Below, one piece after another: positions 10,729 through 33,454 of a stretch of 64,000 bases of DNA. Location of the stretch: contig OZ024747.1 of assembly GCA_964016885.1 (NCBI GenBank), forward strand, positions 27,900,001 to 27,964,000, read 5' to 3'. Both the position numbers and the translations under genes were made by a program. The notes under the pieces were generated by a model. That model had not been told where the DNA came from. It did no database searches and saw only the letters and a program-made list of their open reading frames with translations. This stretch comes from Eledone cirrhosa (lineage: Eukaryota). Numbering within the stretch: the stretch's first letter is position 1; each line of letters starts with the position of its first letter.

Positions 10729-10744
10729 GTAAGTTTCATGTATT

Positions 10745-11051: not shown

Positions 11052-11114
11052 ATTGAAGAAGAAATAAAAGTTGTGAATCAACAGATTCAGGAATTGGAGT
11101 CTAGAAAAGAAAAC
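11052..11114 (+). CDS. SMC2: SMC2 exon 7 (IEEEIKVVNQQIQELESRKEN)
   Basis: ttttccag| and |gtaaga; 63 nt, coiled coil. Confidence 0.87.
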
Positions 11115-11970: not shown

Positions 11971-12120
11971 GAAGCTGGGGCAGCTTTATCAAAGGTTCAG
12001 AAAGAACTTTCTGATGCTAATGTGGTCCATGCCAAAATCCACAGTGCTCTTGACAGTAAGAAGGAAAGTCTGAAAACTGAGGAGAAAAAGAAGAAATCTT
12101 TGATTAAACAAAAAGATGAT
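11971..12120 (+). CDS. SMC2: SMC2 exon 8 (EAGAALSKVQKELSDA...LIKQKDD)
   Basis: ttttgcag| and |gtaagt; 150 nt. Confidence 0.9.
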
Positions 12121-13005
12121 GTAAGTATGATGTTTATTAACCTTTTTGTTATATTTCTAATGAAAAACACCTGTCTATATGTAAGTTATAACCTTTCATT
12201 ATAATTTTATGTTGGAACCAGTTTTGTTATATTCCAAATAGCTTAACCATTGTTAAAATATTTCTAATGAAAGACACTGCATATAATTTTCAAATCATCT
12301 TGAAAATTATCAAGCTGGTGTTTGGGATGTAACAATACATTGGTTCCTATATAAAATGATGATGAAAGGTTTATACATAAAAATAATCTTTTTAAAATAA
12401 ACAGCTTCTGGAGGTTTGATGTCAAAAGTGTTAATGCAAGGGTTGAGCCCATGTCTTTTCCCATCTATTTTAATCACATTGTATGGACATTTTGTTCATT
12501 TACCAGTTCACATGCTGAAGGGGTTTTTTTCTGTTGTTTGGTCAGACTTGACAACAAGAGAATCTGAACAAATGCTTACAACAGATTAGAGTCTGTTAAA
12601 GCCACTCAAGAGGCTTGGTGTTAGATTTAAGCTAGTTGATGGGCAAAAATCTTCTACATTATCTCATTTCAGATAGCTGTCAGCTAGAATAGGTGCACAC
12701 CCAGATTAAGTGAGAATGTTAACTTCAATAGATTGGACTCATATTCAATGGGAGATTTTATCTCTCATCTGCTTAACACAAAGCAAAGATGAAGCATCAG
12801 GTCATATAAGCCCTTTAAGATTTTGGCTATATTTTTCTTATTTCTCAACCAGATAGTACTGCAGTTTAATATCACTAATGACTAAATCTTGGTTGTAAGT
12901 TCCAATTCCACTCTGAGCATCAGATTGTGTCAGAGCTTGAATTTCTGAGGTGAATGGGAGTTTAATTTAAAGTTGTTGTTTTTTTTATATAGGAAACTAA
13001 ATAAT

Positions 13006-13192
13006 TGTTTCTACGTTAGGCACAAGGCCAGCAAATACTCAGTGCATTACTGGTACTTTATTTTATCGACCCCGTAAGGATGAAAGGCAAAGTTAACCTC
13101 GGCGGGATTTGAACTCAGAATGGCAAGGGCCGTAACTCTATACGCCAAAGCATGGCGTCCGACCCTCTACCAATACTGCCAATCCACCGCCC
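13006..13192 (-). mobile_element. SINE family A copy with 18-bp TSD
   Basis: Reverse complement of the 2541-2726 element. TSD tataggaaactaaataat at 12988-13005 and 13193-13210. Confidence 0.88.
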
Positions 13193-13260
13193 TATAGGAA
13201 ACTAAATAATATGTTAATCTGTGTCATTTAATTGTTTAATTTTTTTTTCTATCTGCCCAG

Positions 13261-13450
13261 AATACCAAGACAATTGCTACACGAGAGAAAGATCTGGAAA
13301 ATATTCTAACTGCCACTGAGAAACTTCAAAAACAAAGTGTTGAGGATGCTGAAAATTTTGCTGCTGCTCAGAAACACTTCCATGCTGTCACTGCTGGTCT
13401 CTCTAGTAATGATGATGGAGAGGCTGCTACACTTAATGAACAACTCTTGA
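13261..13450 (+). CDS. SMC2: SMC2 exon 9 (NTKTIATREK...AAAQKHFHAVTAGLSSNDDGEAATLNEQLL)
   Basis: Conserved AV.AGLSSN.DG..ATL; cccag| and |gtaagt; 190 nt, ends phase 1. Confidence 0.93.
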
Positions 13451-13529
13451 GTAAGTAAACATTCTCATCATCATTTAATGTCTGCTTTTCAATGATGGCA
13501 TGAGTTAGACAAATTATCACAAACCAAGT

Positions 13530-14087
13530 CTAACGGTAATTATATACTTTGACAGCATAGTTGGTAGAATAAGAACAATATGGAAAAAGTTCAGGGAGCT
13601 ACTACCTCTATTGACATGTTTTCCCTCTACAAACAAAAGGCAAGCTGTAAGATACAAAGTGCAATGTTGTATGGAAGTGAAACATGAGCAGTAAATATAG
13701 AGGATATGCAAATGCTGGAGAGAAATGAAGTAAGCATGCTTCAATGGATGTGAGATATTAATGTGTATGAACAACAAAGCATAAATGAGCTGACATAGAA
13801 ACTGAGAATAAGAGGTAGTGTCAATAGGGAAGACTGTGCTAGTATGGACATGTAATGCATATAGGGTATGGCTTTTGAAGTAAAGAAGTGCCAAGAGTTC
13901 CCCGTTGAAGGAAACTGCAGTAAAGGAAAGCCAAAGAAAACTTTGGCAGAAGTCATGAGAGAAAATCTCAAAATGCTAAACTTCACAGAGATGACAAAGG
14001 AATACAATAAGTGGAGGGAAGTTGTGCTGAAAAAGACCTGTTCTATTCATGCTAGCATGGAGAAACAAACTTAAAAAGGATGATGAA
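13530..14087 (+). mobile_element. Degenerate RTE-type LINE 3' remnant
   Basis: Fragments WKKFRELLPLLT and VEGNCSKGKPKKT...KWREVV...HASMEK; GAT-type tail. Confidence 0.75.
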
Positions 14088-14120
14088 TACATAAATATAT
14101 ATATATTATTATATTTCCAG

Positions 14121-14175
14121 CTGCCAAGAATGATATCAGTAACAGTACCACAGAAATTAAACAGGCTGAAATGAG
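14121..14175 (+). CDS. SMC2: SMC2 exon 10 (AKNDISNSTTEIKQAEM)
   Basis: tttccag| and |gtcagt; 55 nt, phase 1 to 2. Confidence 0.9.
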
Positions 14176-14261
14176 GTCAGTAAGAGATTTATTAGTTTCT
14201 CTCCTTTGTTGATAAAATGAATTATCTTTCATATATATATATATATGTTTGTGTGTGTAAA

Positions 14262-14525
14262 GGCATATACATGGCTAAGTGGTTAGGGTGTTTGAGTCAC
14301 AATCGTAAGGTCATGAATTCAACTGTTACTCGGCTGGAGCAAATGAGTTGCATCTGTAATTCAAAGAGCCTGCAATGTTACACACAGTCATGCTGAATCT
14401 CCCTGAGAACTATGTTAAGGGTGCACATGTCTGAAATGCTCAGCTACTTGCACATTAATTTCCCGAGCTGGCTGTTCTATTGTTAAAACATTTGGAACAC
14501 TCATTGTGACCAATGGAGATCCAAC
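14262..14525 (+). mobile_element. Degenerate tRNA-derived SINE
   Basis: Head catggctaagtggttagggtg...aatcgtaaggtcatgaattcaa resembles the head of the 22083 SINE. Confidence 0.55.
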
Positions 14526-14938
14526 ATCTGTAGAGATAGATAACATGGTTAAATAGGTAAGGTGCTAGACTCCAGACTAATAGATCCTAAGTTAAAATGA
14601 GATGATGTTTTATGTATCTAAACCAGACACATTTGATGGTAGATATTCTGGAGAAAGACCAGTAAAGAACTGGTCAGCCATAGATAGATAGCTATGACCA
14701 AGGCTGGTCAGATAAGTTAGAAAGTAATCAAGTATGTTGAGGAATTTAGTAATATAATTAAATTTCTCATTATTAAGCTGGCGTTTGGATCAACTTAAAA
14801 TTATGATGGAAGGGTTTGGGATAAATAAAAACACCTTAAAATAAACAGCTTAATGTTGTAGAACCATGTGTAGTTTCAGGTAGGTTAGTATGAAATGGGT
14901 TAACTAACAGTAGTCTCTATCTTGTTTACGCTCCTCAG

Positions 14939-15059
14939 ATTGAAACACAGCCAAAGCATGTTGAAGACAAAATTACCGGAACTGAAGAAGACGGAACAGA
15001 GTTACAAAAAAGATGAACTTGAATTCAAAAAAATGCAGGACAGTCTTGCTAAACTTCAG
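14939..15059 (+). CDS. SMC2: SMC2 exon 11 (LKHSQSMLKTK...YKKDELEFKKMQDSLAKLQ)
   Basis: ctcctcag| and |gtaggg; 121 nt, phase 2 to 0. Confidence 0.9.
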
Positions 15060-15169
15060 GTAGGGCACATTTAAGTAGTATCATCATTGTCATTGTCACC
15101 ACTATCCAGATTATCATGGTCATTGTTGTCATCATCACCACAATTGATGGACTTGTGCCTAAATTAGAA

Positions 15170-16265
15170 ACCAGGTAGAAAGGCTGTGGTAAGGGAGCAA
15201 CCTGAGTTAATGGCAGAAACTGCAAAAAAAAGGGTCTCCTATAGCTGAACTGACACCTGGATGCAGCATCAAATACTGAAGTAGAGAAAGTTCTGAGAGA
15301 AATATGATCAGATGTGGTCCATATATCAAGAGGAAGGTAGTTTGCCAGTGTAGAGGTCCTCTTCAAAAAGTGAGGACTTTGTGCAACAACACTTCATGGT
15401 TCACTTTTGCAATGAAGAGTTTGTCCTCTTCCCCACACTTCTCATGGGGGATAGTCAGGTTAAGCAGATTAAGTGTCCTTCTAGGTTTGGACATCTGGTG
15501 TATTTTGGCTTTCATTGTCCTTGAGGAGAAGAACTGGTCTGGGATCAGTTTGGGTGTCATGCTTCAAGTGAAACCAGAAAATATGGAAAAAATCTCAGAC
15601 CTTATCCACCTGCCCTGTAGGGTTGAGGACAAAAAGCCCAAATGACATTTATGTGGTCCAGGAACTATGAATAATTTCCTGAAATCCCTGACCTAACTAC
15701 TACTGGAGCACTGCCAGTTCAAAATAAACTCTACATGCATGGAAGTGTTGTCAGTCAGATCTGTCCAATATACGTTCTGTGTGATGAAACCATTCTAATA
15801 ATAGATGCATTCATCCAGTGTCCATCCATTACTGATTTGTAGGATTTTGTTGAACAGTTGTCGCATGTAGGACAAATCTATCTAATGGCTGGTGCCATTG
15901 TGAAGATCACTGCCACCTTCCTTTGACTGGGAAGGACAAGCAGTTTTCCTATGTCTGGTGGAAAGGAAGGTGAGGGGAGTGTTGACTTTCAGTATTTTTG
16001 TTAAATAGGTGGGTGAATGGGCCTATTCTAGGTATGTGCCTGTCTGCTCAAGAGAACAGGAAAATGGCATGATGATTGGAGTGATCTCTGATCTGTGAGG
16101 TTCCTTAATTACCCATGGGTGGTGCTTCCCCATCTGTGGAATTCTGTTATTAATAGATTGTTACTTTAACTGTTTTTTTTGTTTAATTGTTTTATGGAAA
16201 CCCCCACTGTCCCTCTTCATTTGTATTGTTCTTAGTGTTTCGGCCCTAGTGGCCAATAAAGAAAT
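15170..16265 (+). mobile_element. Degenerate L1/Tx1-type LINE 3' remnant
   Basis: ~15707-15860 translates as ALPVQNKLYMHG...ICP...DETIL...AFIQCP, a decayed zf-RVT-like motif. T-rich 3' UTR with AATAAA at 16255-16260. The 5' boundary is approximate. Confidence 0.6.
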
Positions 16266-16298
16266 CATTGTTATTATTGCTACTACTGTTATTATTAG

Positions 16299-16417
16299 AC
16301 TGAATTAAAGAAGCTGAACTATGATGAGGAGAAGGTAAAGACCTTGTCTGCTGAGAGGAACCATTTGAGTCAAGAAGTCCAGAAACTCCAAGAGAAGGCA
16401 GAATTTCTGGAAGCTAA
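16299..16417 (+). CDS. SMC2: SMC2 exon 12 (TELKKLNYDEEK...KAEFLEA)
   Basis: Conserved KKLNY.E; attattag| and |gtatgt; 119 nt. Confidence 0.9.
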
Positions 16418-16885
16418 GTATGTCCACCATTGTCACTGCTGTTACTATAGCAACCACCTTTGGAGGAATTATCCGACTTCATGTGTTTGTTGAATATATG
16501 TACTATTCTTTTATCAAAGATTAAAAAAAAGACAGTGAAAGATGCTCTAAGAGAGAAACTGGATATGTTAAATGACAAGGATAAACTTGAGAGTGTTTGG
16601 AAGTCTTTGAAAGGTAGTTTGTTAGTTGTTGGTGATGTGTTAGGATGGGCAAAAGGGCCAAGACACTTGGAATCATGGAAGTGGTTCTTTTGGTGCCACT
16701 ACAAAAAGTGCCCAGTCCACACTAATGTGGTCATTACTGTGGCATGATAAAATGCACCCAGGCCACTCTGTAAATGTGTTTGGCCTTAGAAAGGACATCT
16801 AGCCCTAGAAAGAGGTTCGGATTTTTGCCTATTTCTCAAACATAAAATGGGGAGGGGGAGGTCGGCTTATATTCAAGTATATACA

Positions 16886-16929
<44 letters not shown>

Positions 16930-17120
16930 ATATACACATATGTATATATATATATATATTGTGCAGATTACTCAGTAATTTTGTTGATTACTGGAGGTGG
17001 CACCAATATGAGCACTCAATGCTATAGCAGTATGTATATATGAAGTATGATGTAATGAAGTTTCACTTTAAATGTTTGATTGTATATCAGCTGTTATATA
17101 TATGTTTGAATGTTTTGTAG

Positions 17121-17259
17121 ATTCCCTCACCTAAACTTCCAATATAAAGACCCTGAGAGAGGATTTAACCGAAAAGCTGTCCATGGACTTCTCTGTAAAT
17201 TGGTCAGGATAAAATCTCCAGAGACTGGGACAGCCCTGGAAGTTGTGGCAGGAAATAAG
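17121..17259 (+). CDS. SMC2: SMC2 exon 13, hinge start (FPHLNFQYKDPE...TALEVVAGNK)
   Basis: Hinge motifs F.YKDPE and TALE.VAG; ttttgtag| and |gttagt; 139 nt. Confidence 0.95.
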
Positions 17260-18037
17260 GTTAGTTCTTCAGAATTTATTTGATTTAATATGTCTGACTC
17301 TTGCCCACATGGATAAACGGATGTTAAACAATGACATACATACACACACGTCCTAACTACGATTTTCCCAGAGTTTTTTCTGTGTAACTGCAGGGTTCTG
17401 TGAAAAAAATCTCATTTTCCATGAGATGGGTTCCGTTCAATAAAATTTTATTAAAAAATTATATATGAATAAATTCTCTCTCTAACAATTTTTCTTTTAT
17501 GTAATCAACCATAATAATATGCCATGTGTGTTTGTATATTTATATATATCTCTGTCTGTAACTCTTTAAAATGTACTCACAAACATACATATATGGACAA
17601 TGCATTTCTTATTTCAGTCATGTTACAATAAGAAGTCTGCTTTCCAATAACAATGTCCTAGGTTAGAACCCAGGATATTGTGTTAGAAACCCTACATTTG
17701 TCTCTGAAAATAATTATTTCTTCAAAGTTATTCATACATTTAATCCACCCTGTATATCATTTGTACATATATGTTGAATGTTTATGTAATTATATCCCGA
17801 TATAAATTAAAATATGATTTTCATCTTTAATTACATGCACATAGTAATCAACATAAACCGTTAGTTTATCAAAATGCAAATTTCACAGTTTTTATGAATG
17901 TTCACATATTCAATAATGCTGGTATATACAGCAAACCAATCCTCGACTCCAAAAATTAAATTCATTCAATGTTATTGCTGTCATTATTGACTGCAGAGGT
18001 CCTTTAGTTGTTAATAATTATTTCTGTTATATTCCAG

Positions 18038-18184
18038 TTGTATAATATTGTTGTTGACAATGAAATTGTTGGCAAGAAACTTGTTCAGAATGGTCAGTTG
18101 AAGAGACGTTACACTATAATTCCATTGGACAAAATTATCTCTTCGAAGATTAATCCTGATATTGTCAAGAAAGCTGAAGGCCTG
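18038..18184 (+). CDS. SMC2: SMC2 exon 14 (LYNIVVDNE...LKRRYTIIPLDKI...KAEGL)
   Basis: Hinge motifs; ttccag| and |gtatgt; 147 nt. Confidence 0.96.
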
Positions 18185-18617
18185 GTATGTATTAGTGGTA
18201 TAGATGGTGATGATGGTGTAGTAATAATGTGGTGGTGTGATGGTGAGATAGTGATGTAGTGGTGGTGGAGTGGAAGTAATATAGCAGATGTGAAGGTATG
18301 ATGTTCAAACCAGCCATAACTGGCCCCTCATACTGACTTTAAGGTATTGTTCTCAAAATAAATAATATCAAAATCTTGAATATATAATAGTAAATATAGA
18401 GTAATGTGAATGTTAAAGGGTTAAATATATTTTTTTTATTGTTTCAAATGTTTATAATTATCAAACTTTATGTCATTGTCAATAAAAAATACAACTCTTA
18501 ACACCTACCACATTAATAAGATATTCTTGAAAAGTATAAAATAATACTGTGGCTGAATTACATGAAAAATTAAAGTATCAGTTAATTAAAAATTTAATTA
18601 ATCTCATTAATATATAG

Positions 18618-18822
18618 GTTGGCAAAGAGAATGTGCACACTGCCCTGTCATTGATTGGTTACGAAAAGCAACTGACTGCTGCTATGGAATATGTGTTTGG
18701 TACCAGTTTTGTCTGTAAAAATATGGAAGTGGCTAAAAATGTCACCTTTCATTCTGCCATCATGAAAAGAAGTATAACCCTTGATGGGGATTCTTTCAAC
18801 CCTGCAGGAACCCTCACTGGAG
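18618..18822 (+). CDS. SMC2: SMC2 exon 15 (VGKENVHTALSLI...AMEYVFG...TLDGDSFNPAGTLTG)
   Basis: Hinge glycine motif; tatatag| and |gtaaat; 205 nt. Confidence 0.96.
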
Positions 18823-19831
18823 GTAAATGGTTCTCTCTCTCTGTATTTTTTTAATGTGTTTTGAACTTCTCTAATTGAAAAAAATGTTAAGTTACTGACC
18901 TTACATTTAGGGAAACACAGTAAAGTGTTCATCTTGGAGTTTTCTTATTTAGCTTAGTGTGGTAGTGGTTTTTATGTGATCTGATGTGAGTTTATTCAGT
19001 CATGCTATTGTATACTACTAAACCTTGTATTGCCACTACAGCTGTGTTAACAAAATATATTCTACTACTCATATACAATAATCATTTTAAAGCCATCTCC
19101 CCTGCTAAAACAGGAGTTAGCCTTGTAGGTCCCATGACAGGCTTCTCTACTTTACCCTTTCTTCTCTGCCCCCCCCCCCCCCCCCTTGAGGTTTCATTTA
19201 CACCTCCATCTTTTGCCATATCTTTTTTGAGTTTTCCCTTTCTCTACCTCCATTCACATTCATTTCTATCACTCCTCTCACTGAATCACTTTCATCCTTT
19301 TTCAACACATTACCTCACCATCTCATTCCAGTTCTCTTTACAACATTCATTACTGGTTCTACTCCCCTCGCCCATTTACTTTTATTTTTCAACACAAGAC
19401 CCAATCATGTCACTCCATTTCTCTTCACATTACTCATCGTTGGCTCTAAACTTATAATCCTCTACAATTCATTGTTTATTTTCCTCTCCCTCTGCAATAC
19501 TCTGCTCATCTATTGCATCATATGAACAGGTAAATCTGGCAAAGTCTTAGACACTTTGATATTTTACCACCACAGATAACTTGGTAATGGTACACAGTGA
19601 AATAAAAGTGGACCACAACTTGGAGATTGTTCAAAGTATTTGTAGTAGAAGTAAATGAATGAAGTAGACTATGTTTGAGTACATAAGGCCACACAGATGG
19701 AGTGTGATACAACACAGACACATGCATTCTATCCTTGTCTGTATAGCCGCATTAGGGATGATGATTAATATATATCATCATGTATACATTTTTATAATAT
19801 ATATCATATATGTGTGTTTTTTTTTCCTTAG

Positions 19832-19967
19832 GTTCTCGTCCTCAAAATAGCTCCGTCCTGCTGAAGTTACAAGAACTGACCCAAGTGGAGAAAGAATTGT
19901 CAGATAAAAGGATCATTCTCACTAAATTAGAAACGGAACTGAATGCCTTACAGAAAATGTCTGGAAT
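19832..19967 (+). CDS. SMC2: SMC2 exon 16 (SRPQNSSVLLKLQEL...LQKMSG)
   Basis: tttccttag| and |gttagt; 136 nt, phase 1 to 2. Confidence 0.9.
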
Positions 19968-21015
19968 GTTAGTGTCTTGTTATTATTTTCACAGTTATAT
20001 TCCAGAGAATACTTTGGAAATTATGCATGAGCTTGTATAGACATTTACCCAGGGTTTGTTCTGTCAGCTTCAACCAGTGAATACCCACAACATTATAAAT
20101 AGAAGCCACCCATGTATGTCTTATGTCTACCCAAGATAGGCTGAGCTGGCTCTAGCCATTGCATCCATAGTGTTGAAGACAGGCCATCACAGACATCTGA
20201 CATGTTGTCAGCCAGTCACAATTCCAATGGTAGACACCATATATGCCAGTTCCAACCAGAGTATCCATACCAATTCAAACAGACCACCCATGCATGGCAA
20301 TCACTGACATCTGATACAGATGTTAGCTAGTCATAATTCCAGTAGTAGAAACCACATATGTAAGGGCCAGATACTTTCCCCTCCACATTAATAAACCATA
20401 AACCTTTGAATAATTTATGCTTTATTAATGTGGAAGGCAGAATTGGTATGGTTGACAACAAATAGCCTTAATGTAGCTATATCCTGTCATGTATTTGTCT
20501 TACCCTGTCATGTATTTGTCTTACCATTTCCCTCTCTATTTCCTTCTGTCATGCAGTTTGATAAGTAAAATGATGATTGAGGTTTTTTAAAGTGTGTATA
20601 TTTATCTAAAAACCTTCCATCAAAATGTTATGCAAGATCCTTTGTTAAGTTATTCCAAACACCAATTTATTAATGAGAAAGTCGTGTTTTTTTTTTATAT
20701 TGCTAATCCTTAATTTTTTATTTTTTAAATAATTTGAAAATCATAGGCTGTGTATTTCATTATAAACATAGTAACGGAAGGGTTAATGATATTTGTATTG
20801 ATGATGATGATGGTGGTGGTGATGATTCTAGGTACAATACTCAAATGGTAGTGGTATTTGAGTTGTGTAAACCCTAAACCAAAGCGGTGGTGGTGGTATT
20901 ATAATATTGCAGGTATAATAAACTGGTGGTAGTAGTGGGGGTGATGGTGTTGGTGTAATATTCAAGTACAATAAAGTGTTGGCGATGGTGGTAACAGTGT
21001 TATGTAATATTTCAG

Positions 21016-21140
21016 GTACCATAAAGTAAAGAGTGAGTTTGAGTTGAAACAACATGAAACTGAATTATTGAAAACCAGACTGGAGCAGACAACACATCAT
21101 CAACAGTTGGAAGAGATAAATGGACTGGAGAAAACTATTG
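21016..21140 (+). CDS. SMC2: SMC2 exon 17 (YHKVKSEFELKQHE...HHQQLEEINGLEKTI)
   Basis: atttcag| and |gtcagt; 125 nt, phase 2 to 1. Confidence 0.9.
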
Positions 21141-21319
21141 GTCAGTATACTCTCTATCTCTCAACCTAGCTCTCCTTCCACCTTTCTACCCCCCTCTCTA
21201 CTAGAGAAAATTATTGGTCGGTGATACATAAACTTGTATAAATTTGAAAAGAACACATTAAAAAAAAAATTCGGGAACTTAATGTAATTATTTTTCCTAT
21301 GAATTACAACTTTTGGTCC

Positions 21320-21362
<43 letters not shown>

Positions 21363-21445
21363 ATAATAATAAATTTGAAGACTAAAATCCAAAGAGGGCT
21401 CGATAAGGATAAATATATATCAAATATATAAGCACCGTAGAGCAA

Positions 21446-21822
21446 ATATTTACTAAAATAACAAATTAAAGTTTAAGCAAAGAATCGCTGCTTTCACCCT
21501 TAACGGGATCTTCTGAAACTAACAAAGTCAATCTGTAAACGCAGAAGTGGATATTTCAAAAAACGTTGCAACCGGAGGAAGACAGGAAGACGATACTTTG
21601 GTTCGTGGAAACGTTCGCTATGCAGATAAGTAATTTACTTATTTGCATAGCGAACGTTTCCACGAACCAAAGTATCGTCTTCCTGTCTTCCTCCGGTTGC
21701 AACGTTTTTTGAAATATCCACTTCTGCGTTTACAGATTGACTTTGTTAGTTTCAGAAGATCCCGTTAAGGGTGAAAGCAGCGATTCTTTGCTTAAACTTT
21801 AATCTGTTATTTTAATAAATAT
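21446..21822. repeat. Long near-perfect palindrome (~187-bp arms, centre ~21634) between TA microsatellites
   Basis: 21446-21632 is the reverse complement of 21636-21822 with about 3 mismatches. Confidence 0.93.
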
Positions 21823-22082
21823 ATATATATATATAAATCATCATCATCATCAACGTTTAACGTCCGTGTTCCACGCTTGCATGGGTTTGGACGGGGGTAG
21901 TCCCACTTGAGGCAAGAGTGATTGTCTTGCTCGCATAGGACTGTCTGGCAGGTTTTCTACAGTTGGATGCCCTTCCTAACACCAACCACATTTACAGTGT
22001 GGGTCTATAAATGAAAAATATAGAAATTGTTGTAGCGAGAAGCTAACAGTATTCCATAACATATATATATATATATATATAT

Positions 22083-22407
22083 GGAGGCACATGGCTTAGT
22101 GGTTAGAGCATTGGCCTTGCAATCGAAAGGTTGTGAGTTCAATTCTCAGACCGGGTGATGTGTTGTTTTCTTGAGCAAGACACTTTATTTCACATTGCTC
22201 CAGTTTACTCAGCTGTAGAAATGAGATGATAGGGACTGGGGTCCATATCATTCCACGGCAAAAAAGCACCCAGCACTCACTGTAAATGAGGTTGGTGTTA
22301 GGAAGGGCATCCAGCTGTAGAAATCAAGCCAAAATCAGTTCCCGTCCCACCCTTGCAAGCAGGGAAAATGCAGACGTAAAATGAAATGATGATGATGATG
22401 ATGATGA
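22083..22407 (+). mobile_element. Full-length tRNA-derived SINE (family B) with (GAT)n tail
   Basis: A-box-like TGGCTTAGTGG, B-box-like GAGTTCAATTCTC, body ttgagcaagacacttt and aggaagggcatccagctgtagaaa, tail gatgatgat. Confidence 0.85.
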
Positions 22408-22758
22408 TTTCATTTTACGTCTGCTTTTTCCCTGCTTGCAAGGAAGGGCATCCAGCTGTAGAAATCAACCCAAGAACTGATTTTGGCTTGATTTCTACAG
22501 CTGGATGCCCTTCCTAGCACCAACCTCATTTACAGTGAGTGGTGGGTGCTTTTTTGCCGTGGCACCTCCACGACCACTTTGCAGTGGAATGATATGGACC
22601 CCAGTCCCTATCATCTCATTTCTACAGCTGAGTAAACTGGAGCAATGTGAAATAAAGTGTCTTGCTCAAAGAAACAACACATCACCCAGTCTGAGAATTG
22701 AACTCACAACCTTTCGATTGCAAGGCCAATGCTCTAACCACTAAGCCATGTGCCTCCA
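22408..22758 (-). mobile_element. Inverted duplicate of the adjacent family B SINE
   Basis: Near-identical reverse complement of 22083-22387, tail-to-tail around the GAT run. Confidence 0.88.
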
Positions 22759-23035
22759 TATATGTATAGTATATTTGATAATATACAGTATGTTTAATTA
22801 AAAACATTTTGAAGACCATTCGCTATGAATTTTAAAGTAGTGACTATGTCACTTATTCTCGGCAAAAACAAAGGGGAGTACAGTCCTGTTTCTTGCTCGT
22901 TAGCGGTTATCAAGACTACTTACCCCTTCACTTCTGCCTGATTGCTTACTGATCTGTTTGATTGGGTATTGATTTGTCTGATTGGTTATTCATCTATATG
23001 ATTAGTTATTGATCCCTGTGGTTGGTTGTTTTCAG

Positions 23036-23229
23036 AGGAACAGAAAGCCATTGTCCAGACTGCAGAAGAGGTGAACAAGAAAGCTAAAGAAAAGGTGAAA
23101 GATCTTGATTATAAAATAAAAAATGCTGATAAAATCCGTGAAAATGAATTGAAACAAGCTGAAGCTAACGTGAACAAGATCCAGAAACAGATGCAGAGCT
23201 CTAGTAAATTGATGAAGGAAAAACAACAG
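23036..23229 (+). CDS. SMC2: SMC2 exon 18 (EQKAIVQTAEE...KIKNADKIRENELK...MKEKQQ)
   Basis: ttttcag| and |gtgggt; 194 nt, phase 1 to 0. Confidence 0.92.
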
Positions 23230-23976
23230 GTGGGTTTCTACAGTTTTTTAGTGCAGAGGTGACAGATCTTTCAAGTAAATGAAAATATTTCATCCAGTTC
23301 ACTAGATTCATTTCACATGCTCTGGTAGAAATATTTTCATTTTACACATATTTTTATGTTTTTATACATATATTTATTCTACCAAGTGTCTTCTCTTTTC
23401 ACCATATCTTATTTGCCTTGTTCTGTTTGTGTCATCATCATCATTTAACCCCTGTTTTCCAAGCTGACATGGGTTGGATGGATTGTCATGGGACTAGATG
23501 AGTCAGAGAATCATATTTGGCTTGGTTTCTATGACTGGATGCCCTTCCTAATGTCAACCACTTTACAGTGTACTGGGTTTGTTTTAGCATGACACCAACA
23601 CTTCCATTTTTCAAAGCGTACTGGTTGTATTTATTGTGGCACCAGCACTACCACTTTACTGAGTGTACTGGGTGCATATAAAAACCTCCCATTATAAATT
23701 TTAAATGCCAGCTTAATATTACTAAATTGACTAATTTCAAAATGATTTGAAAATCATAGGCAGTGTCTTTCAATAAAAATATGGTAAAAAAAGGGTTAAA
23801 GATTTGAGAACTACCGTATTTCTTGGCGCCGAAGACGCTTCGTCCTTGAGGACACACCATAATTTTGGAGGTTGATAAAATAAAGCACCACTTGGATCAA
23901 TTCAATCGACTTTCCCCTCTCCCAAATTGTTGGCCTTGTGCCTTAATCAGAAGCCACTATTATTATTATTATTATT

Positions 23977-24165
23977 AGGGTGGTTGATTGACACAATCAT
24001 TAGTGTATTGGATGAAATGCAATGCAATATTTCGTTATAGCTCTCTATGTTCTGCTTTCAAATCCCACCAAGGTCAGCTTTACCTTTCTTCCTTTCAGGG
24101 GGTCAATAAAATAAAGTAGTATTGGGGTTGGTATAATCGACTTTCCACTTCCACTCAAAATTATT
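23977..24165 (+). mobile_element. Older, diverged SINE family A copy
   Basis: Shares ttcaaatcccacc.aggt and cctttc.tcctttc.gggggtc.ataaaataaagta with 2541-2726. Confidence 0.65.
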
Positions 24166-24184
24166 ACTACTACTGTTGTTGTAG

Positions 24185-24328
24185 CTTATTGATACAGTGA
24201 AACTTGAGATTGTTGAACTGAAGAAAGAGGTGTCTAGCTATGAGGAACAATTGAAAACTGTTGAAGATGTGATTACCACCTATACTAATGAGTTGAAGGA
24301 AGTTGAGGAAAAGTTAACCATATGTCAG
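24185..24328 (+). CDS. SMC2: SMC2 exon 19 (LIDTVKLEIVELKKEVSSYEEQL...LTICQ)
   Basis: ttgtag| and |gtaggt; 144 nt. Confidence 0.9.
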
Positions 24329-24643
24329 GTAGGTTATAGTAACCCTTTCATGTAGCCTGCACTGCATTGTTTATTTATGTGACAGAAAAATGTTTATATT
24401 TGTGATATGACAGTGTTTACATACCTGTGACATGACAGTGTTAACATATCTGTGACATGACAGTACTGTTCCTTTTTGTGACAGGCTGATGTTATATATG
24501 TGTGTGTGTGACATGACTGCATTTACATATCTGACAAGGCAATTTTATTTATATATGTGACGTGACTGTTGTTTATATATCTGGGACAGGGCAATGTTAA
24601 CATTTGTGATGTGACAGGCATGTGTTGTTTCTATTTGTGGCAG

Positions 24644-24838
24644 GCATCTGTAAAAGAGGCACAAGAGAATGTAAATAAGCAGAAGGCGCTATTGAACGCC
24701 TGTACCAATGAAATACGAGCTGCTAACAGAAGTCTGAAAAATCTCCAAGATAAGGCAAATAAAATTGAACTTGAGAACAAGGAATTGGAACATAAACGCA
24801 GCAAGTTACAGAAGGAATCTAAAGACACAACATCACAG
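24644..24838 (+). CDS. SMC2: SMC2 exon 20 (ASVKEAQENVNKQK...KELEHK...DTTSQ)
   Basis: tttgtggcag| and |gtaagt; 195 nt. Confidence 0.92.
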
Positions 24839-24888
24839 GTAAGTCACTGTGTCTCCTGGTGGATAGGGTTCCTTTTTTTTACAATCGT

Positions 24889-25510
24889 TAATCCTTTTGA
24901 TGCCAAGCCACTTGAAAAAAATGCCCCTGGTTCTGTACTACAAAACTTATGTAAGAAACTTTATGTTCCAAACATAAGCTTGATAATGAGAAAGTTATTT
25001 TACTAGATCCCTCCAAATTCTTGATTATTTTCTAAATTGTATGAAAATCATATTGTCTTGTTAAAACTATAGTAATGAATGGGTTATGGTTGTTCAGTGT
25101 CTTATGATGAGGCTGTAATAATATTAGATGTAGCAGCTTTTTAACAAGAGTATCAGAATGTATAACATATAGTACTTTGGTCTGGTATAGTATAACACCA
25201 GATTATAGAACTTACAGTATTTAGGTTTGATATAGTACAGCACTAAACTGTATAATAGTATTTAACCATTTCATTTTCATATTTCTAATGAAAGGTACTT
25301 TCTAAGATTTTTCAAATAATTTTTTAAATAATCAATAATTTTTAGGGATTTAGTAATGTAGCTAACTTTCATATGATTAAACTGGTGTTTGGAACATAAT
25401 TTACCAAAGGTTCTTATATAAAATTATTATAGAAACTTTGTAGATAAATATAGACACTTTAAGTTTTGTGACAATAGAATGGGGGACAGTTTGATATCAG
25501 ATGGGTTAAC
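24889..25510. mobile_element. Copies of a TTAA-bounded (piggyBac-like) MITE family; related fragments near 7770-8010, 12243-12446, 14740-14903, 20590-20785 and 23680-23800
   Basis: Recurrent motifs aaaaccttccatca, ttccaaacaccag, tttgaaaatcatagg and ends ttaa-cc(c)ttt ... gggttaa. Confidence 0.55.
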
Positions 25511-25777
25511 CTTTTTATGGCAGTATTTCTAATGAACAGCACTCTATTTCACTTAATTAATGAGGAAGTTTGAGGGAATTACCAAAATTATTATTACTAA
25601 GATAGTTAACTTAACATGTGATTCTTATATAAAATTATGTTGGAAAATCTTAATTAAAAATAGGAACCCTCTAAAATTTTATTGAATTAAAGCTAGTTGT
25701 TATCAAGTGTTAACGACTAGGTGACATACCTTCACTAAGAAACCATATCAATGTGTTTGTGTATCTTTGTTAAACAG

Positions 25778-25978
25778 GTTGAAAACTGGCTGAAGAAATA
25801 CGTGTGGATTGTTGATGAGAAGAAGTTCTTTGGTAAACCAAACACAGAATATGACTTTACTGTTAATGACCCAGTTGCTGCTGAACAGAGGATTCATTCG
25901 TTAATGGAAATTAAAGACAAGTTGGGTCACAACATCAACATGCGGGCCATGAATATGTTAGAGAAGGCAGAGGAAGAG
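25778..25978 (+). CDS. SMC2: SMC2 exon 21 (VENWLKKYVWI...FGKPNTEYDF...NINMRAMNMLEKAEEE)
   Basis: Conserved WI..E...FG.PN..YDF and N.NMRAMN; aaacag| and |gtgggt; 201 nt. Confidence 0.96.
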
Positions 25979-26364
25979 GTGGGTATTTGAGGCAAACTTC
26001 TTTGGTGTTGGGCCTCTTTTTTCCTTCTCCTTTTTTTCTCTTTCCTTTGGAGTGAATCATCAACTACAACATGTATTGAGTACTCTTTCTGTCATTTGTA
26101 TTTCTAAAAGTAAATGTGTGGGTATAAATATATGTATGTATACATACACAAATTTTTATATGCTTATATGAGATAAAAAAAGAAAGAGTAAGAAAGTTTT
26201 ATTCTATGTTTCCGTGTTGTAATGTAATGATTGTCTACCCAGCGTAATGACTTGATGGCTAATGCATTAATTGTCTTTTCAGTGTAATGATCTGATTGTT
26301 AATGTTATGTCTTCCTTTTGCATTGGTCTGATGACTAATGTAATGTCTTTCCCATGTAATAATC

Positions 26365-26790
26365 TCATCATCATTACTGTTTTTATGTCTGTATTTTCAT
26401 GGTTGCATGGGTGGGACGGGTCCTTTTCAGCACAATTTGAGATCAGCTCTCACCACCTCTGCTCAGATCTTCCTTGGTCTACCTCTACTGTGGCTTCCTT
26501 CTACTGAGATTTCCTTAGTTACTTCATTTGTCTCCAGGCTACTGATGCCCTCTGCAGTCACTGCCCATGTTCCACTGCTAAGCAGCATCACACTTTGCAT
26601 ACAGGTATCATACAGTTCTTTTGTATGTAGGGAGAAACCTTTTGTTGTCAACAGTGGGAGTAGCTCTCTAAACTTCCTTCATTCCATCCTATCCTTATTC
26701 TAGCTATTATGCTCTCAGAGCATCTTCCTCCACTGCTAATTAGGTCACCTAGATAGCAGAAGCTATCAACCACTTCTATGAATCCTTCCT
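26365..26790 (-). mobile_element. Degenerate RTE-type LINE 3' remnant interrupting the old end of the 36-bp satellite
   Basis: ORF 26463-26651 TKGFSLHTKELYDTCMQSVMLLSSGTWAV...VEGSHSRGRPRKI; same family as 13530-14087. Confidence 0.75.
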
Positions 26791-26914
26791 GTGATTGAAA
26801 AAGGTTTATATCCTTGACGCTCTTCCCCCCGATTACCCCTTCTACAATGGCTAATATAATGATTATCTACCCAGAGTAATGATCTGATAGCAAAAGTAAT
26901 GATTGTCTTTTTAA

Positions 26915-29900
26915 TGTAATGATCTGATGGCTAATGTTATGACATCCCAGTGTAATGATCTGATAGCTAATGTTATGACATCCTGGTGTAATGATCTAAT
27001 GGCTAATGTTATGACATCCTGGTGTAATGATCTAATGGCTAATGTTATGACATCCTGATGTAATGGCTAATGTTATGACATCTTGGTGTAATGATCTGAT
27101 GGCTAATGTTATGACATCTTGGTGTAATGATCTGATGGCTAATGTTATGACATCTTGGTGTAATGATCTAATGGCTAATGTTATGACATCCTGGTGTAAT
27201 GATCTAATGGCTAATGTTATGACATCCTGATGTAATGGCTAATGTTATGACATCCTGGTGTAATGATCTAATGGCTAATGTTATGACATCCTGGTGTAAT
27301 GATCTAATAGCTAATGTTATGACATCCTGGTGTAATGATCTAATGGCTAATGTTATGACATCCTGGTGTAATGATCTAATGGCTAATGTTATGACATCCT
27401 GGTGTAATGATCTAATGTTATGACCTCTTGGTGTAATGATCTAATGGCTAATGTTATGACATCCTGGTGTAATGATCTAATGGCTAATGTTATGACATCC
27501 TGGTGTAATGATCTAATGTTATGACCTCTTGGTGTAATGATCTAATGGCTAATGTTATGACATCCTGGTGTAATGATCTAATGGCTAATGTTATGACATC
27601 CTGGTGTAATGATCTAATGGCTAATGTTATGACATCCTGGTGTAATGATCTAATGGCTAATGTTATGACATCTTGGTGTAATGATCTAATGGCTAATGTT
27701 ATGACATCCTGGTGTAATGATCTAATGGCTAATGTTATGACATCTTGGTGTAATGATCTGTTATGACATCCTGGTGTAATGATCTAATGGCTAATGTTAT
27801 GACATCCTGGTGTAATGATCTAATGGCTAATGTTATGACATCCTGGTGTAACGATCTAATGGCTAATGTTATGACATCCTGGTGTAATGATCTAATGGCT
27901 AATGTTATGACATCCTGGTGTAATGATCTAATGTTATGACCTCTTGGTGTAATGATCTAATGGCTAATCTTATGACATCCTGGTGTAATGATCTAATGGC
28001 TAATGTTATGACATCCTGGTGTAATGATCTAATGGCTAATGTTATGACATCCTGGTGTAATGATCTAATGGCTAATGTTATGACATCCTGGTGTAATGAT
28101 CTAATGGCTAATGTTATGACATCCTGGTGTAATGATCTAATGTTATGACCTCTTGGTGTAATGATCTAATGGCTAATGTTATGACATCCTGGTGTAATGA
28201 TCTAATGGCTAATGTTATGACATCCTGGTGTAATGATCTAATGGCTAATGTTATGACATCATGGTGTAATGATCTAATGGCTAATGTTATGATATCCTGG
28301 TGTAATGATCTAATGTTAAGACCTCTTGGTGTAATGATCTAATGGCTAATGTTATGACATCCTGGTGTAATGATCTAATGGCTAATGTTATGACATCCTG
28401 GTGTAATGATCTAATGGCTAATGTTATGACATCCTGGAGTAATGATCTAATGTTATGACCTCTTGGTGTAATGATCTAATGGCTAATGTTATGACATCCT
28501 GGTGTAATGATCTAATGGCTAATGTTATGACATCCTGGTGTAATGATCTAATGGCTAATGTTATGACATCCTGGTGTAATGATCTAATGTTATGACACCC
28601 TGGTGTAATGATCTAATGTTATGACATCCTGGTGTAATGATCTAATGGCTAATGTTATGACATCTTGGTGTAATGATCTAATGGCTAATGTTATGACATC
28701 TTGGTGTAATGATCTAATGGCTAATGTTATGACATCCTGGTGTAATGATCTAATGTTATGACATCCTGGTGTAATGATCTAATGGCTAATGTAATGACAT
28801 CCTGGTCTAATGATCCAATGTTATGACATCCTGGTGTAATGATCTAATGGCTAATGTTATGACATCTTGGTGTAATGATCTAATGGCTAATGTTATGACA
28901 TCCTGGTGTAATGATCTAATGTTATGACATCCTGGTGTAATGATCTAATGGCTAATGTTATGACATCTTGGTTTAATGATCTAATGTTATGACATCCTGG
29001 TGTAATGATCTAATGGCTAATGTTATGACATCCTGGTGTAATGATCTAATGGCTAATGTTATGACATCCTGGTGTAATGATCTAATGGCTAATGTTATGA
29101 CATCCTGATGTAATGATCTAATGGCTAATGTTATGACATCTTGGTGTAATGATCTAATGGCTAATGTTATGACATCCTGGTGTAATGATCTAATGTTATG
29201 ACCTCTTGGTGTAATGATCTAATGGCTAATGTTATGACATCCTGGTGTAATGATCTAATGTTATGACATCCTGGTGTAATGATCTAATGGCTAATGTTAT
29301 GACATCCTGGTGTAATGATCTAATGGCTAATGTTATGACATCCTGGTGTAATGATCTAATGGCTAATGTTATGACATCCTGGTGTAATGATCTAATGGCT
29401 AATGTTATGACATCTTGGTGTAATGATCTAATGGCTAATGTTATGACATCCTGGTGTAATGATCTAATGTTATGACCTCTTGGTGTAATGATCTAATGGC
29501 TAATGTTATGACATCCTGGTGTAATGATCTAATGGCTAATGTTATGACATCTTGGTGTAATGATCTAATGTTATGACATCCTGGTGTAATGATCTAATGG
29601 CTAATGTTATGACATCCTGGTGTAATGATCTAATGGCTAATGTTATGACATCCTGGTGTAATGATCTAATGGCTAATGTTATGACATCCTGGTGTAATGA
29701 TCTAATGTTATGACCTCTTGGTGTAATGATCTAATGGCTAATGTTATGACATCCTGGTGTAATGATCTAATGGCTAATGTTATGACATCCTGGTGTAATG
29801 ATCTAATGTTATGATCTCTTGGTGTAATGATCTAATGGCTAATGTTATGACATCCTGGTGTAATGATCTAATGGCTAATGTTATGACATCCTGGTGTAAT

Positions 29901-32900
29901 GATCTAATGGCTAATGTTATGACATCCTGATGTAATGGCTAATGTTATGACATCTTGGTGTAATGATCTGATGGCTAATGTTATGACATCTTGGTGTAAT
30001 GATCTAATGGCTAATGTTATGACATCCTGGTGTAATGATCTAATGGCTAATGTTATGACATCCTGATGTAATGGCTAATGTTATGACATCCTGGTGTAAT
30101 GATCTAATGGCTAATGTTTTGACAACCTGGTGTAATGATCTAATGGCTAATGTTTTGACAACCTGGTGTAATGATCTAATGGCTAATGTTATGACATCCT
30201 GGTGTAATGATCTAATGGCTAATGTTATGACATCCTGGTGTAATGATCTAATGGCTAATGTTATGACATCCTGGTGTAATGATCTAATGGCTAATGTTAT
30301 GACATCCTGATGTAATGGCTAATGTTATGACATCTTGGTGTAATGATCTAATGGCTAATGTTATGACATCTTGGTGTAATGATCTAATGGCTAATGTTAT
30401 GACATCCTGGTGTAATGATCTAATGGCTAATGTTATGACATCCTGATGTAATGGCTAATGTTATGACATCCTGGTGTAATGATCTAATGGCTAATGTTTT
30501 GACAACCTGGTGTAATGATCTAATGGCTAATGTTATGACATCCTGGTGTAATGATCTAATGGCTAATGTTATGACATCATGGTGTAATGATCTAATGGCT
30601 AATGTTATGACATCCTGGTGTAATGATCTAATGTTATGACCTCTTGGTGTAATGATCTAATGGCTAATGTTATGACATCCTGGTGTAATGATCTAATGGC
30701 TAATGTTATGACATCCTGGTGTAATGATCTAATGGCTAATGTTATGACATCCTGGTGTAATGATCTAATGTTATGACCTCTTGGTGTAATGATCTAATGG
30801 CTAATGTTATGACATCCTGGTGTAATGATCTAATGGCTAATGTTATGACATCCTGGTGTAATGATCTAATGTTATGACATCCTGGTGTAATGATCTAATG
30901 GCTAATGTTATGACATCCTGGTGTAATGATCTAATGGCTAATGTTATGACATCCTGGTGTAATGATCTAATGGCTAATGTTATGACATCTTGGTGTAATG
31001 ATCTAATGTTATGACATCCTGGTGTAATGATCTAATGGCTAATGTAATGACATCCTGGTGTAATGATCCAATGTTATGACATCCTGGTGTAATGATCTAA
31101 TGTTATGACATCTTGGTGTAATGATCTAATGGCTAATGTTATGACATCCTGGTGTAATGATCTAATGGCTAATGTTATGACATCTTGGTGTAATGATCTA
31201 ATGTTATGACATCCTGGTGTAATGATCTAATGGCTAATGTTATGACATCCTGGTGTAATGATCTAATGGCTAATGTTATGACATCCTGGTGTAATGATCT
31301 AATGGCTAATGTTATGACATCCTGGTGTAATGATCTAATGGCTAATGTTATGACATCCTGGTGTAATGATCTAATGGCTAATGTTATGACATCCTGGTGT
31401 AATGATCTAATGGCTAATGTTATGACATCTTGGTGTAATGATCTAATGGCTAATGTTATGACATCCTGGTGTAATGATCTAATGTTATGACCTCTTGGTG
31501 TAATGATCTAATGGCTAATGTTATGACATCCTGGTGTAATGATCTAATGGCTAATGTTATGACATCCTGGTGTAATGATCTAATGGCTAATGTTATGACA
31601 TCTTGGTGTAATGATCTAATGTTATGACATCCTGGTGTAATGATCTAATGGCTAATGTTATGACATCCTGGTGTAATGATCTAATGGCTAATGTTATGAC
31701 ATCCTGGTGTAATGATCTAATGGCTAATGTTATGACATCTTGGTGTAATGATCTAATGGCTAATATTATGACATCTTGGTGTAATGATCTAATGTTATGA
31801 CATCCTGGTGTAATGATTTAGTGGCTAATGTTATGACATCCTGGTGTAATGATCTAATGGCTAATGTTATGACATCCTGGTGTAATGATCTAATGGCTAA
31901 TGTTATGACATCTTGGTGTAATGATCTAATGTTATGACATCCTGGTGTAATGATCTAATGGCTAATGTTATGACATCCTGGTGTAATGATCTAATGTTAT
32001 GACCTCTTGGTGTAATGATCTAATGGCTAATGTTATGACATCCTGGTGTAATGATCTAATGGCTAATGTTATGACATCCTGGTGTAATGATCTAATGGCT
32101 AATGTTATGACATCTTGGTGTAATGATCTAATGGCTAATGTTATGACATCCTGGTGTAATGATCTAATGTTATGACATGCTGGTGTAAATGATCTAATGG
32201 CTAATGTTATGACATCCTGGTGTAATGTTCTAATGTTATGACATCCTGGTGTAATGATCTAATGGCTAATGTTATGACATCTTGGTGTAATGATCTAATG
32301 GCTAATGTTATGACATCCTGGTGTAATGATCTAATGTTATGACATCCTGGTGTAATGATCTAATGGCTAATGTTATGACATCTTGGTGTAATGATCTAAT
32401 GTTATGACATCCTGGTTGGCTAATGTTATGACATCCTGGTGTAATGATCTAATGGCTAATGTTGACATCCTGGTGTAATGATCTAATGGCTAATGTTATG
32501 ACATCCTGGTGTAATGATCTAATGGCTAATGTTATGACATCTTGGTGTAATGATCTAATGGCTAATGTTATGACATCTTGGTGTAATGATCTAATGTTAT
32601 GACATCCTGGTGTAATGATCTAATGGCTAATGTTATGACATCCTGGTGTAATGATCTAATGGCTAATGTTATGACATCCTGGTGTAATGATCTAATGGCT
32701 AATGTTATGACATCCTGGTGTAATGATCTAATGGCTAATGTTATGACATCTTGGTGTAATGATCTAATGGCTAATGTTATGACATCCTGGTGTAATGATC
32801 TAATGTTATGACATCCTAGTGTAATGATCTAATGGCTAATGTTATGACATCTTGGTGTAATGATCTAATGTTATGACATCCTGGTGTAATTATCTAATGG

Positions 32901-33328
32901 CTAATGTTATGACATCCTGGTGTAATGATCTAATGGCTAATGTTATGACATCCTGGTGTAATGATCTAATGGCTAATGTTATGACATCTTGGTGTAATGA
33001 TCTAATGGCTAATGTTATGACATCCTGGTGTAATGATCTGATGGTTAATGTTATGACCTCTTGGTGTAATGATCTGATGGTTAATGTTATGACATCATTG
33101 TGTAATGATCTGATTGCTAATGTTATGAGATCCTGTGTAATGATCTAATGGCTAATGTTATGACCTCTTGGTGTAATGATCTGATGGTTAATGTTATGAC
33201 CTCTTGGTGTAATGATCTGATGGTTAATGTTATGACATCATTGTGTAATGATCTGATTGCTAATGTTATGAGATCCTGTGTAATGATCTGATGGCTAATG
33301 TTATGTTATGTAATGATTGTTTCCCCAG
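26915..33328 (+). repeat. 36-bp satellite TGTAATGATCTAATGGCTAATGTTATGACATCCTGG with interspersed 29-bp deletion variants (roughly 185 units)
   Basis: Direct observation. Homogeneous core, degenerate edges, further decayed copies at 26222-26362 and 26847-26914. Confidence 0.97.
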
Positions 33329-33454
33329 TGTAATGATCTGATGAATAAAAGGAAAATAGTTTTAAATGACAAGATGAAGATTGCTCAAGTTATTGCTGAG
33401 CTGGATGAAATGAAAAAAGAAGCCCTGAAGAAGGCCTGGGAGCAGGTTAATAAG
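33329..33454 (+). CDS. SMC2: SMC2 exon 22 (CNDLMNKRKIVLNDKMKI...LDEMKKEALKKAWEQVNK)
   Basis: Conserved IV.NDK.KI...LD..K..AL..AW..VNK; tttccccag| and |gtaaga; 126 nt, sandwiched between two satellites. Confidence 0.96.

What the first reader, a model, noticed from the sequence alone, without database searches (positions are those of the whole stretch)
26222..33343. Intronic satellite born from the exon-22 splice-acceptor junction, with the AG lost
Seen: the real junction is gattgtttccccAG|TGTAATGATCTGATG (CNDLM). The satellite unit is ...gacatcctGG|TGTAATGATCTAATG..., i.e. the first 15 nt of the exon preceded by a disabled acceptor. Decayed edge copies keep the ancestral form: gattgtctacccAG|cgtaatgacttgatg (~26230), ttgtcttttcAG|tgtaatgatctgatt (~26271), gattatctacccAG|agtaatgatctgat (~26861) and gacatcccAG|tgtaatgatctgata (26941). 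Together they form a gradient from junction-like to homogenised units. Inference: a tandem duplication spanning the 3' splice site was amplified about 185-fold, and only an AG-less variant could expand in an essential gene.
Basis: partly seen in the sequence, partly recalled or inferred. Interest (0 to 1): 0.8.

Follow-up and report, generated by a model that had tools for sequence, protein, structure and literature searches.

The report
Satellite born from a splice acceptor
In an octopus-like animal's SMC2 gene, a 6.4-kb intronic repeat of about 180 units is a copy of the gene's own intron-exon boundary, likely made by a small local duplication that later expanded, and the idea that it could expand only after losing its splice signal is plausible but unproven.

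Summary
Intron 21 of a single-copy octopod SMC2 gene carries about 180 units (mostly 36 nt) found nowhere else in the 3-Gb assembly. Old 40-nt copies match the true acceptor region (-20..+20) at 30-33 of 40 bases. The exon start is conserved in other animals, so the exon came first; a spliced contig uses the true acceptor. Refinements: the unit holds 20, not 15, exon bases and keeps an Ala codon that other octopods have and this exon lost; a relative has the old copies but no sign of the large array; the last unit supplies the only branch-point-like motifs before the true acceptor. The selection claim is unproven. For: the true acceptor is weak, decoy use gives stops, the relative damaged three decoy acceptors. 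Against: four old copies keep AG (one outscores the true site), new AGs are not depleted in the array, and junction copies (8 of 184) are rarer than ordinary intronic duplications (10%). It is the acceptor-side mirror of known donor-spanning minisatellites (F7, CBS, LMNB2): a new variant of a known kind.

The parts
4563..25978 (+). SMC2 coding exons 1-21 (exon 21 = 25778-25978)
   Evidence: open frame, GT-AG at every intron; 86-87% identical to Octopus SMC2, 83-84% to Argonauta; one match of exon 21 in G000
26223..26374 (+). old junction copies 1-4 (40, 40, 36, 36 nt); AG kept at 26241-42 and 26281-82, lost in copies 3 and 4
   Evidence: copies 1-3 also present in organism B
26375..26845 (-). 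fragment of a high-copy dispersed repeat that splits the old copies; minus-strand frames read like a decayed LINE reverse transcriptase (RTE-type label recalled, not tested); ends approximate
   Evidence: depth of thousands and more in all four runs; translation
26855..26970 (+). old copies 5-7 (40, 40, 36 nt), a 116-nt block duplicate of 26223-26338; copy 7 is the AG-bearing 36-mer closest to the array unit
   Evidence: 91 of 116 identical; tree puts copy 7 at zero length beside the array group, weak support
26971..33028 (+). homogenised array of AG-less 36- and 29-nt units; one unit regained AG at 32818-19
   Evidence: collapsed depth 570-780 against 6.8 in run X1
33029..33298 (+). older 3'-edge units, all without AG at the junction position; the last unit's exon-like part (33279-33298) holds branch-point-like motifs with A at -38 and -31 of the true acceptor
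33309..33348 (+). true intron 21 / exon 22 junction, -20..+20, the source of the unit; AG at 33327-28
   Evidence: spliced contig in run X4 joins exon 21 to it
33329..33454 (+). SMC2 coding exon 22 (CNDLMNKRK...VNK)

Best explanation
The array is a locus-specific minisatellite whose unit is a copy of the SMC2 exon-22 splice-acceptor region (-20..+20), likely born by a short tandem duplication, reshaped while at low copy number, and likely amplified to about 180 AG-less units only in this lineage. Steps: (1) duplication of 40 nt, with 3 nt shared at its ends (shown: unit anatomy; inferred: slippage); (2) more copies, a 4-nt deletion to 36 nt, a 116-nt block duplication and a LINE-like insertion (shown in sequence; order inferred); (3) loss of the pyrimidine run and of the AG in the exon-near copies (shown; cause inferred: probably helped by weak selection against decoys within exon-definition range, about 45%, otherwise drift); (4) slippage or unequal exchange amplified one AG-less variant after the split from organism B (inferred from contig depth). 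The true acceptor keeps being used, likely because it alone lies near a strong donor and because the last unit places branch-point-like motifs at -38 and -31.
For: Unit equals junction: 30-33 of 40 against a best background of 22. Exon is older: CNDLM in three Octopus, CKDLM in Argonauta, YNDLM in decapods and Actinia. Unit bases +16..+18 read Ala in 138 of 186 exon-start copies, the residue of O. vulgaris, O. sinensis and Argonauta, where this exon has Asn. Locus-specific: 115 of 115 exact hits here; other arrays found reach only 66-73% and have 20- and 30-nt units. True acceptor used. Old copies shared with organism B, large array not seen there (depth 25-32 against 18-25 single copy; X1 570-780 against 6.8). 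No decoy has a donor above 4.0 bits within 350 nt (true donors: 5th percentile 5.6; exon 22: 10.7). Local tandem duplication is common in these introns (10% of 3049 probes).
Against: Absence of the array in B rests on one sample's short-read contigs at 80% likeness; a more diverged array would be missed. The unit tree is almost unresolved (12 of 13 inner branches open). Branch-point motifs are only modestly enriched in this genome (YTNAY 57 of 90 against a mean of 40.7; CTAAY 8 against 4.7). Short motifs of 14-15 nt are shared with unrelated arrays on C10 and C9.
Confidence: 0.85

Rival explanations
1. Strict selection: any AG-bearing unit is a lethal decoy in an essential gene, so only an AG-less variant could be amplified.
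For: True acceptor is weak (5th percentile of 92), and natural AG-bearing units score only about 2 bits lower; each unit carries branch-point-like motifs (310 CTAAY in the array); all five AG-bearing decoys lead to a stop within 14-74 codons; all units within 300 nt of the exon lack the junction AG; in organism B 5 of 12 changes in three old copies fall at -4..-1 (P=0.004, zone chosen after looking). Globin experiments cited in PMC1557585 used only the proximal copy of a duplicated site.
Against: 4 of 7 old copies keep AG and copy 2 outscores the true site (+2.9 against -0.1); AG-making variants 5 against 4.1 expected; exon-17 and exon-20 acceptor copies mostly keep AG within 30-260 nt of their exons; B against the window lineage is P=0.068, AG alone P=0.118; B's exon-22 contig ends at -10, as a perfect AG-bearing copy would make it.
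Confidence: 0.25
2. Pure drift: the AG was lost like any other base, and the variant that expanded was a chance founder.
For: The array unit differs from the junction at about half of its intron-side positions (10 of 20 aligned match), so loss of a 2-nt AG needs no special cause; no depletion of new AGs; arrays of many kinds are everywhere in this genome.
Against: Clustering of B's changes at the acceptor core; several separate routes of AG loss among exon-near and old copies; junction copies are rarer than intron-interior copies, 8 of 184 against 10% (P=0.004), as purifying selection would give.
Confidence: 0.45
3. A dispersed satellite landed in the intron and resembles the exon start by chance, or donated the exon's first bases.
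For: Arrays on C10 and C9 share 14-15-nt motifs with the unit.
Against: No exact 32-mer elsewhere; those arrays have other periods and 66-73% identity; 33 of 40 match to the junction; exon residues conserved to a cnidarian.
Confidence: 0.03
4. The array is an assembly artefact.
For: The best DNA runs may be the source of the assembly; the neighbouring array has a 200-N gap.
Against: Short-read contigs collapse at about 100-fold depth on the unit; units carry structured variants; no N in the array.
Confidence: 0.02

Closest known systems
Junction-spanning minisatellites of human F7 IVS7 (37 bp), CBS IVS13, LMNB2, interferon-inducible 6-16 and PDGF intron 4 (PMC1557585; passages and Discussion read)
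   Same: A tandem unit straddles an exon-intron boundary and is reiterated in the adjacent intron; the authentic site stays the main one; in CBS a substitution in the second repeat is reported (title in the reference list) to prevent alternate splicing.
   Different: Those are donor-side, 5-25 copies, with pseudo-sites largely intact; this one is acceptor-side, about 180 copies and 6.4 kb, and the amplified unit has lost AG and pyrimidine run.
Internal tandem repeats at exon-intron boundaries (De Grassi and Ciccarelli, PMC2812944; passages read)
   Same: Variable tandem repeats at boundaries arise from local duplication.
   Different: There they create new introns or alternative forms in recent paralogs; here a single-copy gene keeps its protein colinear and the copies stay intronic.
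CBS 844ins68 (PMC4296076, passages read; that it duplicates the intron 7/exon 8 acceptor is recalled, the passages say only that it makes an alternative splice site)
   Same: Duplication across an acceptor leaves two competing AGs.
   Different: One extra copy, polymorphic, not amplified.
Lineage-specific intronic VNTR expansion such as TRACT in CACNA1C (PMC13131567; abstract and outline read)
   Same: Kilobase-scale intronic array of about 30-nt units with internal variants, thought to grow through perfect tracts.
   Different: Nothing in what I read ties TRACT to a splice junction.

Membership tests
Junction-spanning minisatellite (F7/CBS/LMNB2 type) | repeat unit spans an exon-intron boundary of the host gene | tested here: met
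   30-33 of 40 to -20..+20
Junction-spanning minisatellite (F7/CBS/LMNB2 type) | head-to-tail copies in the adjacent intron, ending at the true junction | tested here: met
Junction-spanning minisatellite (F7/CBS/LMNB2 type) | single locus | tested here: met
   115 of 115 exact hits here; one search scored only 15 candidates, so diverged arrays may be missed
Junction-spanning minisatellite (F7/CBS/LMNB2 type) | authentic splice site is the one mainly used | tested here: met
   one spliced contig; rare decoy use not testable, X4 showed no cover on exon 21
Junction-spanning minisatellite (F7/CBS/LMNB2 type) | reiterated site is a donor with the invariant dinucleotide kept | tested here: not met
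   acceptor side; AG in 5 of the upstream copies only
Junction-spanning minisatellite (F7/CBS/LMNB2 type) | copy number varies among individuals (VNTR) | not testable with these tools
   only contigs of one sample and a RAD-seq run without cover of the units
Dispersed satellite DNA family | same unit in arrays at several unlinked loci | tested here: not met
Intron gain by tandem genomic duplication (model recalled) | the duplication creates a new intron using splice sites in the copies | tested here: not met
   exon 21 joins the last copy and the protein is colinear with relatives; intron positions in relatives not seen

The most novel reading that the evidence does not exclude
Acceptor-born repeats obey a distance rule that donor-born ones do not: copies near the exon must lose the acceptor core, the AG-less survivor can then expand without limit, the expansion itself pushes older AG-bearing decoys out of range and frees them from selection, and the terminal unit, made of fossil exon sequence, has become the working branch point of an essential gene.
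Probability: 0.22. Interest if true: 0.68.

Novelty: new variant of a known kind. Interest (0 to 1): 0.42.

Why it matters
The birth of most satellites cannot be traced because the source sequence is lost. Here the source is a conserved exon boundary, the intermediate copies survive, a relative gives a time point, and the unit seems to preserve a codon that the exon has since changed. It offers a ready-made test of how 3' splice-site choice limits which repeats may grow in introns, the mirror of the F7 donor case, and it shows one way octopod introns grow (two arrays make up 73 of the gene's 98 kb). If the AG loss is only drift, it is a tidy case study of an ordinary process.

Tried and rejected
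Sequencing-run search: no RNA holder listed on record; run X4 gave a spliced contig but no cover on exon 21, so decoy use was not tested; the RAD-seq run X6 did not cover the units. Tree of 16 natural units: unresolved except for the array group at 89/92. Depletion of AG-making variants: none. Preference of duplications for junctions: rejected in this sample; outside SMC2 3 of 136 probes reached 16/22 against 0.7 expected (P=0.034), only one of them (a myosin donor on C6) looks like a real junction copy. 24 of 92 candidate introns were dropped as unresolved or low-scoring, which biases the set against weak acceptors. The myosin homolog search was swamped by duplicated-exon proteins. In-frame use of a 36-nt unit as an extension of exon 22: rejected, every AG-bearing copy meets a stop. 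Origin of the intron-22 40-mer from a junction: no in-register match at the exon-22 donor (12/22, control level; 15/22 at the exon-23 acceptor, control maximum 16). Earlier findings of the scan: none. Ten literature searches showed no acceptor-side array of this kind and nothing on this locus; the library lacks most subscription papers, and no supplements were read.

Full report
Setting. The window is G000:C7:27900001-27964000 in a 3.0-Gb assembly. Twenty-two GT-AG exons between 4563 and 33454 give an open 1039-residue frame; three more exons beyond the window close it at 1175 residues. The protein is 86-87% identical to SMC2 of three Octopus species, 83-84% to Argonauta and 75% to Sepia, so the host is an octopod. 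Exon 21 has one match in the assembly. That SMC2 is essential is established knowledge, not tested here. Intron 21 is 7350 nt and intron 22 about 67 kb; the other 22 introns are 0.3-2.3 kb.

Observation. TRF gives 185.8 copies of 36 nt at 26915-33305; anchoring gives 179 units, 130 of 36 nt and 33 of 29 nt. Four old 40-nt copies match the true junction from -20 to +20 at 33, 30, 31 and 31 of 40 positions, while the best match in 18,425 nt of introns 1-20 is 22. A 32-nt piece of the unit has 115 exact hits in the genome, and the window holds 115. A looser DNA search gave 93 matches from 15 scored candidates: 43 here, 48 in an array on C10 and 2 on C9, at 66-73% identity. Those arrays have 20- and 30-nt units and share only 14-15-nt motifs; I judge this chance in a genome full of such arrays, an estimate and not a computed control.

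Direction and splicing. The exon starts CNDLM in three Octopus species, CKDLM in Argonauta and YNDLM in decapods and Actinia, so the exon is older than the repeat. In run X4 a 4798-nt contig covers 33327-33455, preceded by the end of exon 21 and followed by the start of exon 23: the true acceptor is used. X4 is not on record as RNA and belongs to the same study as the best DNA holder; contigs drop rare forms, and X4 showed no cover on exon 21, so rare decoy use is untested.

Anatomy of the unit. The old units are exactly 20 intron bases plus 20 exon-like bases. Positions +16..+20 have one form in 138 of 186 exon-start copies; it differs from the present exon at two bases, both in codon 6, and reads Ala. 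O. vulgaris, O. sinensis and Argonauta have Ala there, O. bimaculoides Val, this exon Asn. The repeat therefore likely preserves the older codon; relatives' DNA was not seen. Block 26223-26338 (40+40+36) is repeated at 26855-26970 (91 of 116), with a high-copy dispersed repeat between them that translates like a decayed LINE (RTE label recalled). Copy 7 (26935-26970) is a 36-mer that still has AG and is the nearest natural form to the array unit (tree support is weak). AG is present in copies 1, 2, 5 and 7 and in one interior unit (32818); units of the 3' edge keep the exon-like base at +12 but have no junction AG.

Age. Organism B (run X5, one sample, contigs; 6 listed differences in the 201 nt of exon 21) has contigs over the old copies, but depth there is 25-32 against 18-25 for single-copy DNA, whereas run X1 of the window's organism shows 570-780 against 6.8. 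The old copies predate the split; the large array likely does not. B's exon-22 contig ends about 10 nt upstream of the junction. In X1 the matching contig ends exactly at the first repeated 30-mer on the right and at the first 15-copy 30-mer on the left, passing over 30-mers of 2-4 copies. A 30-mer from -10 would end at +20, the unit's end, so B likely holds a copy identical to its junction from -10 to +20, AG included. This is inference from one contig end.

Selection on the AG, for. With a matrix from 92 acceptors the true site scores -0.1 bits (5th percentile); natural AG-bearing units score -2.5 and -1.9. All five AG-bearing decoys meet a stop within 14-74 codons. The array holds 310 CTAAY motifs, and the only YTNAY motifs 18-40 nt before the true acceptor (-38, -31) lie in the last unit's exon-like part, while copy 1, which keeps the old upstream intron, has none in that zone (19-37 nt is the usual distance in a passage of PMC10078293). 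In B, 5 of 12 changes I class as B-derived in copies 1, 2 and 5 fall at -4..-1, two of them in the AG (P=0.004), while the window keeps all three AGs, now 6.4-7.1 kb from the exon. I chose that zone after looking, two of the 12 are ambiguous, and only 40 of 428 difference rows were shown.

Selection on the AG, against. Copy 2 keeps AG and scores +2.9, above the true site. Among 26 distinct substitutions in 163 of the 179 units, 5 make an AG against 4.1 expected. B against the window lineage gives P=0.068, the AG alone P=0.118. Decayed copies of the exon-17 acceptor keep AG in 2 of 3, and the decayed repeat before exon 20 carries 8 AGs, one scoring 4.6 against 5.6 for the true site. The intron-22 array has 4752 AGs, scoring up to 0.6. 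No decoy has a donor above 4.0 bits within 350 nt, against 10.7 for exon 22, so exon definition alone may silence distant copies. Branch-point motifs are only modestly enriched in this genome (YTNAY 57 of 90 against a mean of 40.7).

Is it general? I resolved 68 of 92 candidate introns in 13 myosin and chaperonin genes and added SMC2's 24. A 22-nt junction probe had a copy of at least 16/22 in its own intron for 4 of 92 acceptors and 4 of 92 donors, against 0.5 and 0.4 expected from other introns; but 10% of 3049 intron-interior probes had such a copy, and 1 of 184 exon-interior probes. Five of the 8 are in SMC2, one of them the finding itself and one probably chance; of the 3 of 136 elsewhere only a myosin donor with two GT-bearing copies looks real. 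Junction copies are thus an under-represented share of a very common local duplication process, not a special mechanism.

Comparison. PMC1557585 (passages and Discussion read) lists F7, CBS, LMNB2, 6-16 and PDGF as genes with minisatellites whose first unit spans an exon-intron boundary, all at donors, where scanning favours the authentic upstream site. PMC2812944 (passages) reports boundary repeats that make new introns. PMC4296076 (passages) and PMC13131567 (abstract and outline) are looser parallels. Ten searches (listings only, apart from the five papers named) showed no acceptor-side array of this size. The locus works like those minisatellites but fails their donor-side, site-kept feature.

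Verdict. Real feature, origin well supported (0.85), strict AG-selection claim unproven (0.25; a weaker distance-limited form about 0.45). New variant of a known kind; interest 0.42.

Noticed in passing
window 33503-64000, running on to about 100,400 (L011-L014): Intron 22 is about 67 kb and almost wholly a 40-nt satellite (about 1680 copies, GC skew +0.77, one 200-N gap at 58280); its unit resembles intron sequence just after the exon-22 donor, also seen in organism B, but not the exon.
   Followed up: partly
window 20820-21030: Three decayed copies of the exon-17 acceptor junction, interleaved with GGT-type microsatellite; two keep AG (best 18/22).
   Followed up: partly
window 21129-21230: One copy of the exon-17 donor junction 76 nt downstream, GT kept (16/22).
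   Followed up: partly
window 24375-24655: Decayed 25-nt repeat running into the exon-20 acceptor; eight upstream AGs, one scoring close to the true site.
   Followed up: partly
L147 about 2960-3100 (G000:C6, myosin gene): Two copies of a donor junction with GT kept, interleaved with a CAT microsatellite, 50 and 109 nt into the intron.
   Followed up: partly
window 26375-26845: High-copy LINE-like fragment on the minus strand inside the old copies.
   Followed up: partly
window 33329-33331: Octopods have Cys at the first residue of exon 22 where decapods and a cnidarian have Tyr.
   Followed up: no
L028-L030 (G000:C10:52603001-52633000): Six unrelated tandem arrays abut one another within 24 kb, the last a 20-nt unit in about 819 copies.
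   Followed up: no
window 21520-21800 and 2100-2250: Long inverted repeats (seen by eye) in introns or upstream, possibly MITE-like elements.
   Followed up: no
L113-L117 (G000:C27, muscle myosin heavy chain): Several duplicated, apparently mutually exclusive exons, and a 192-nt tandem duplication that starts at an exon end.
   Followed up: no
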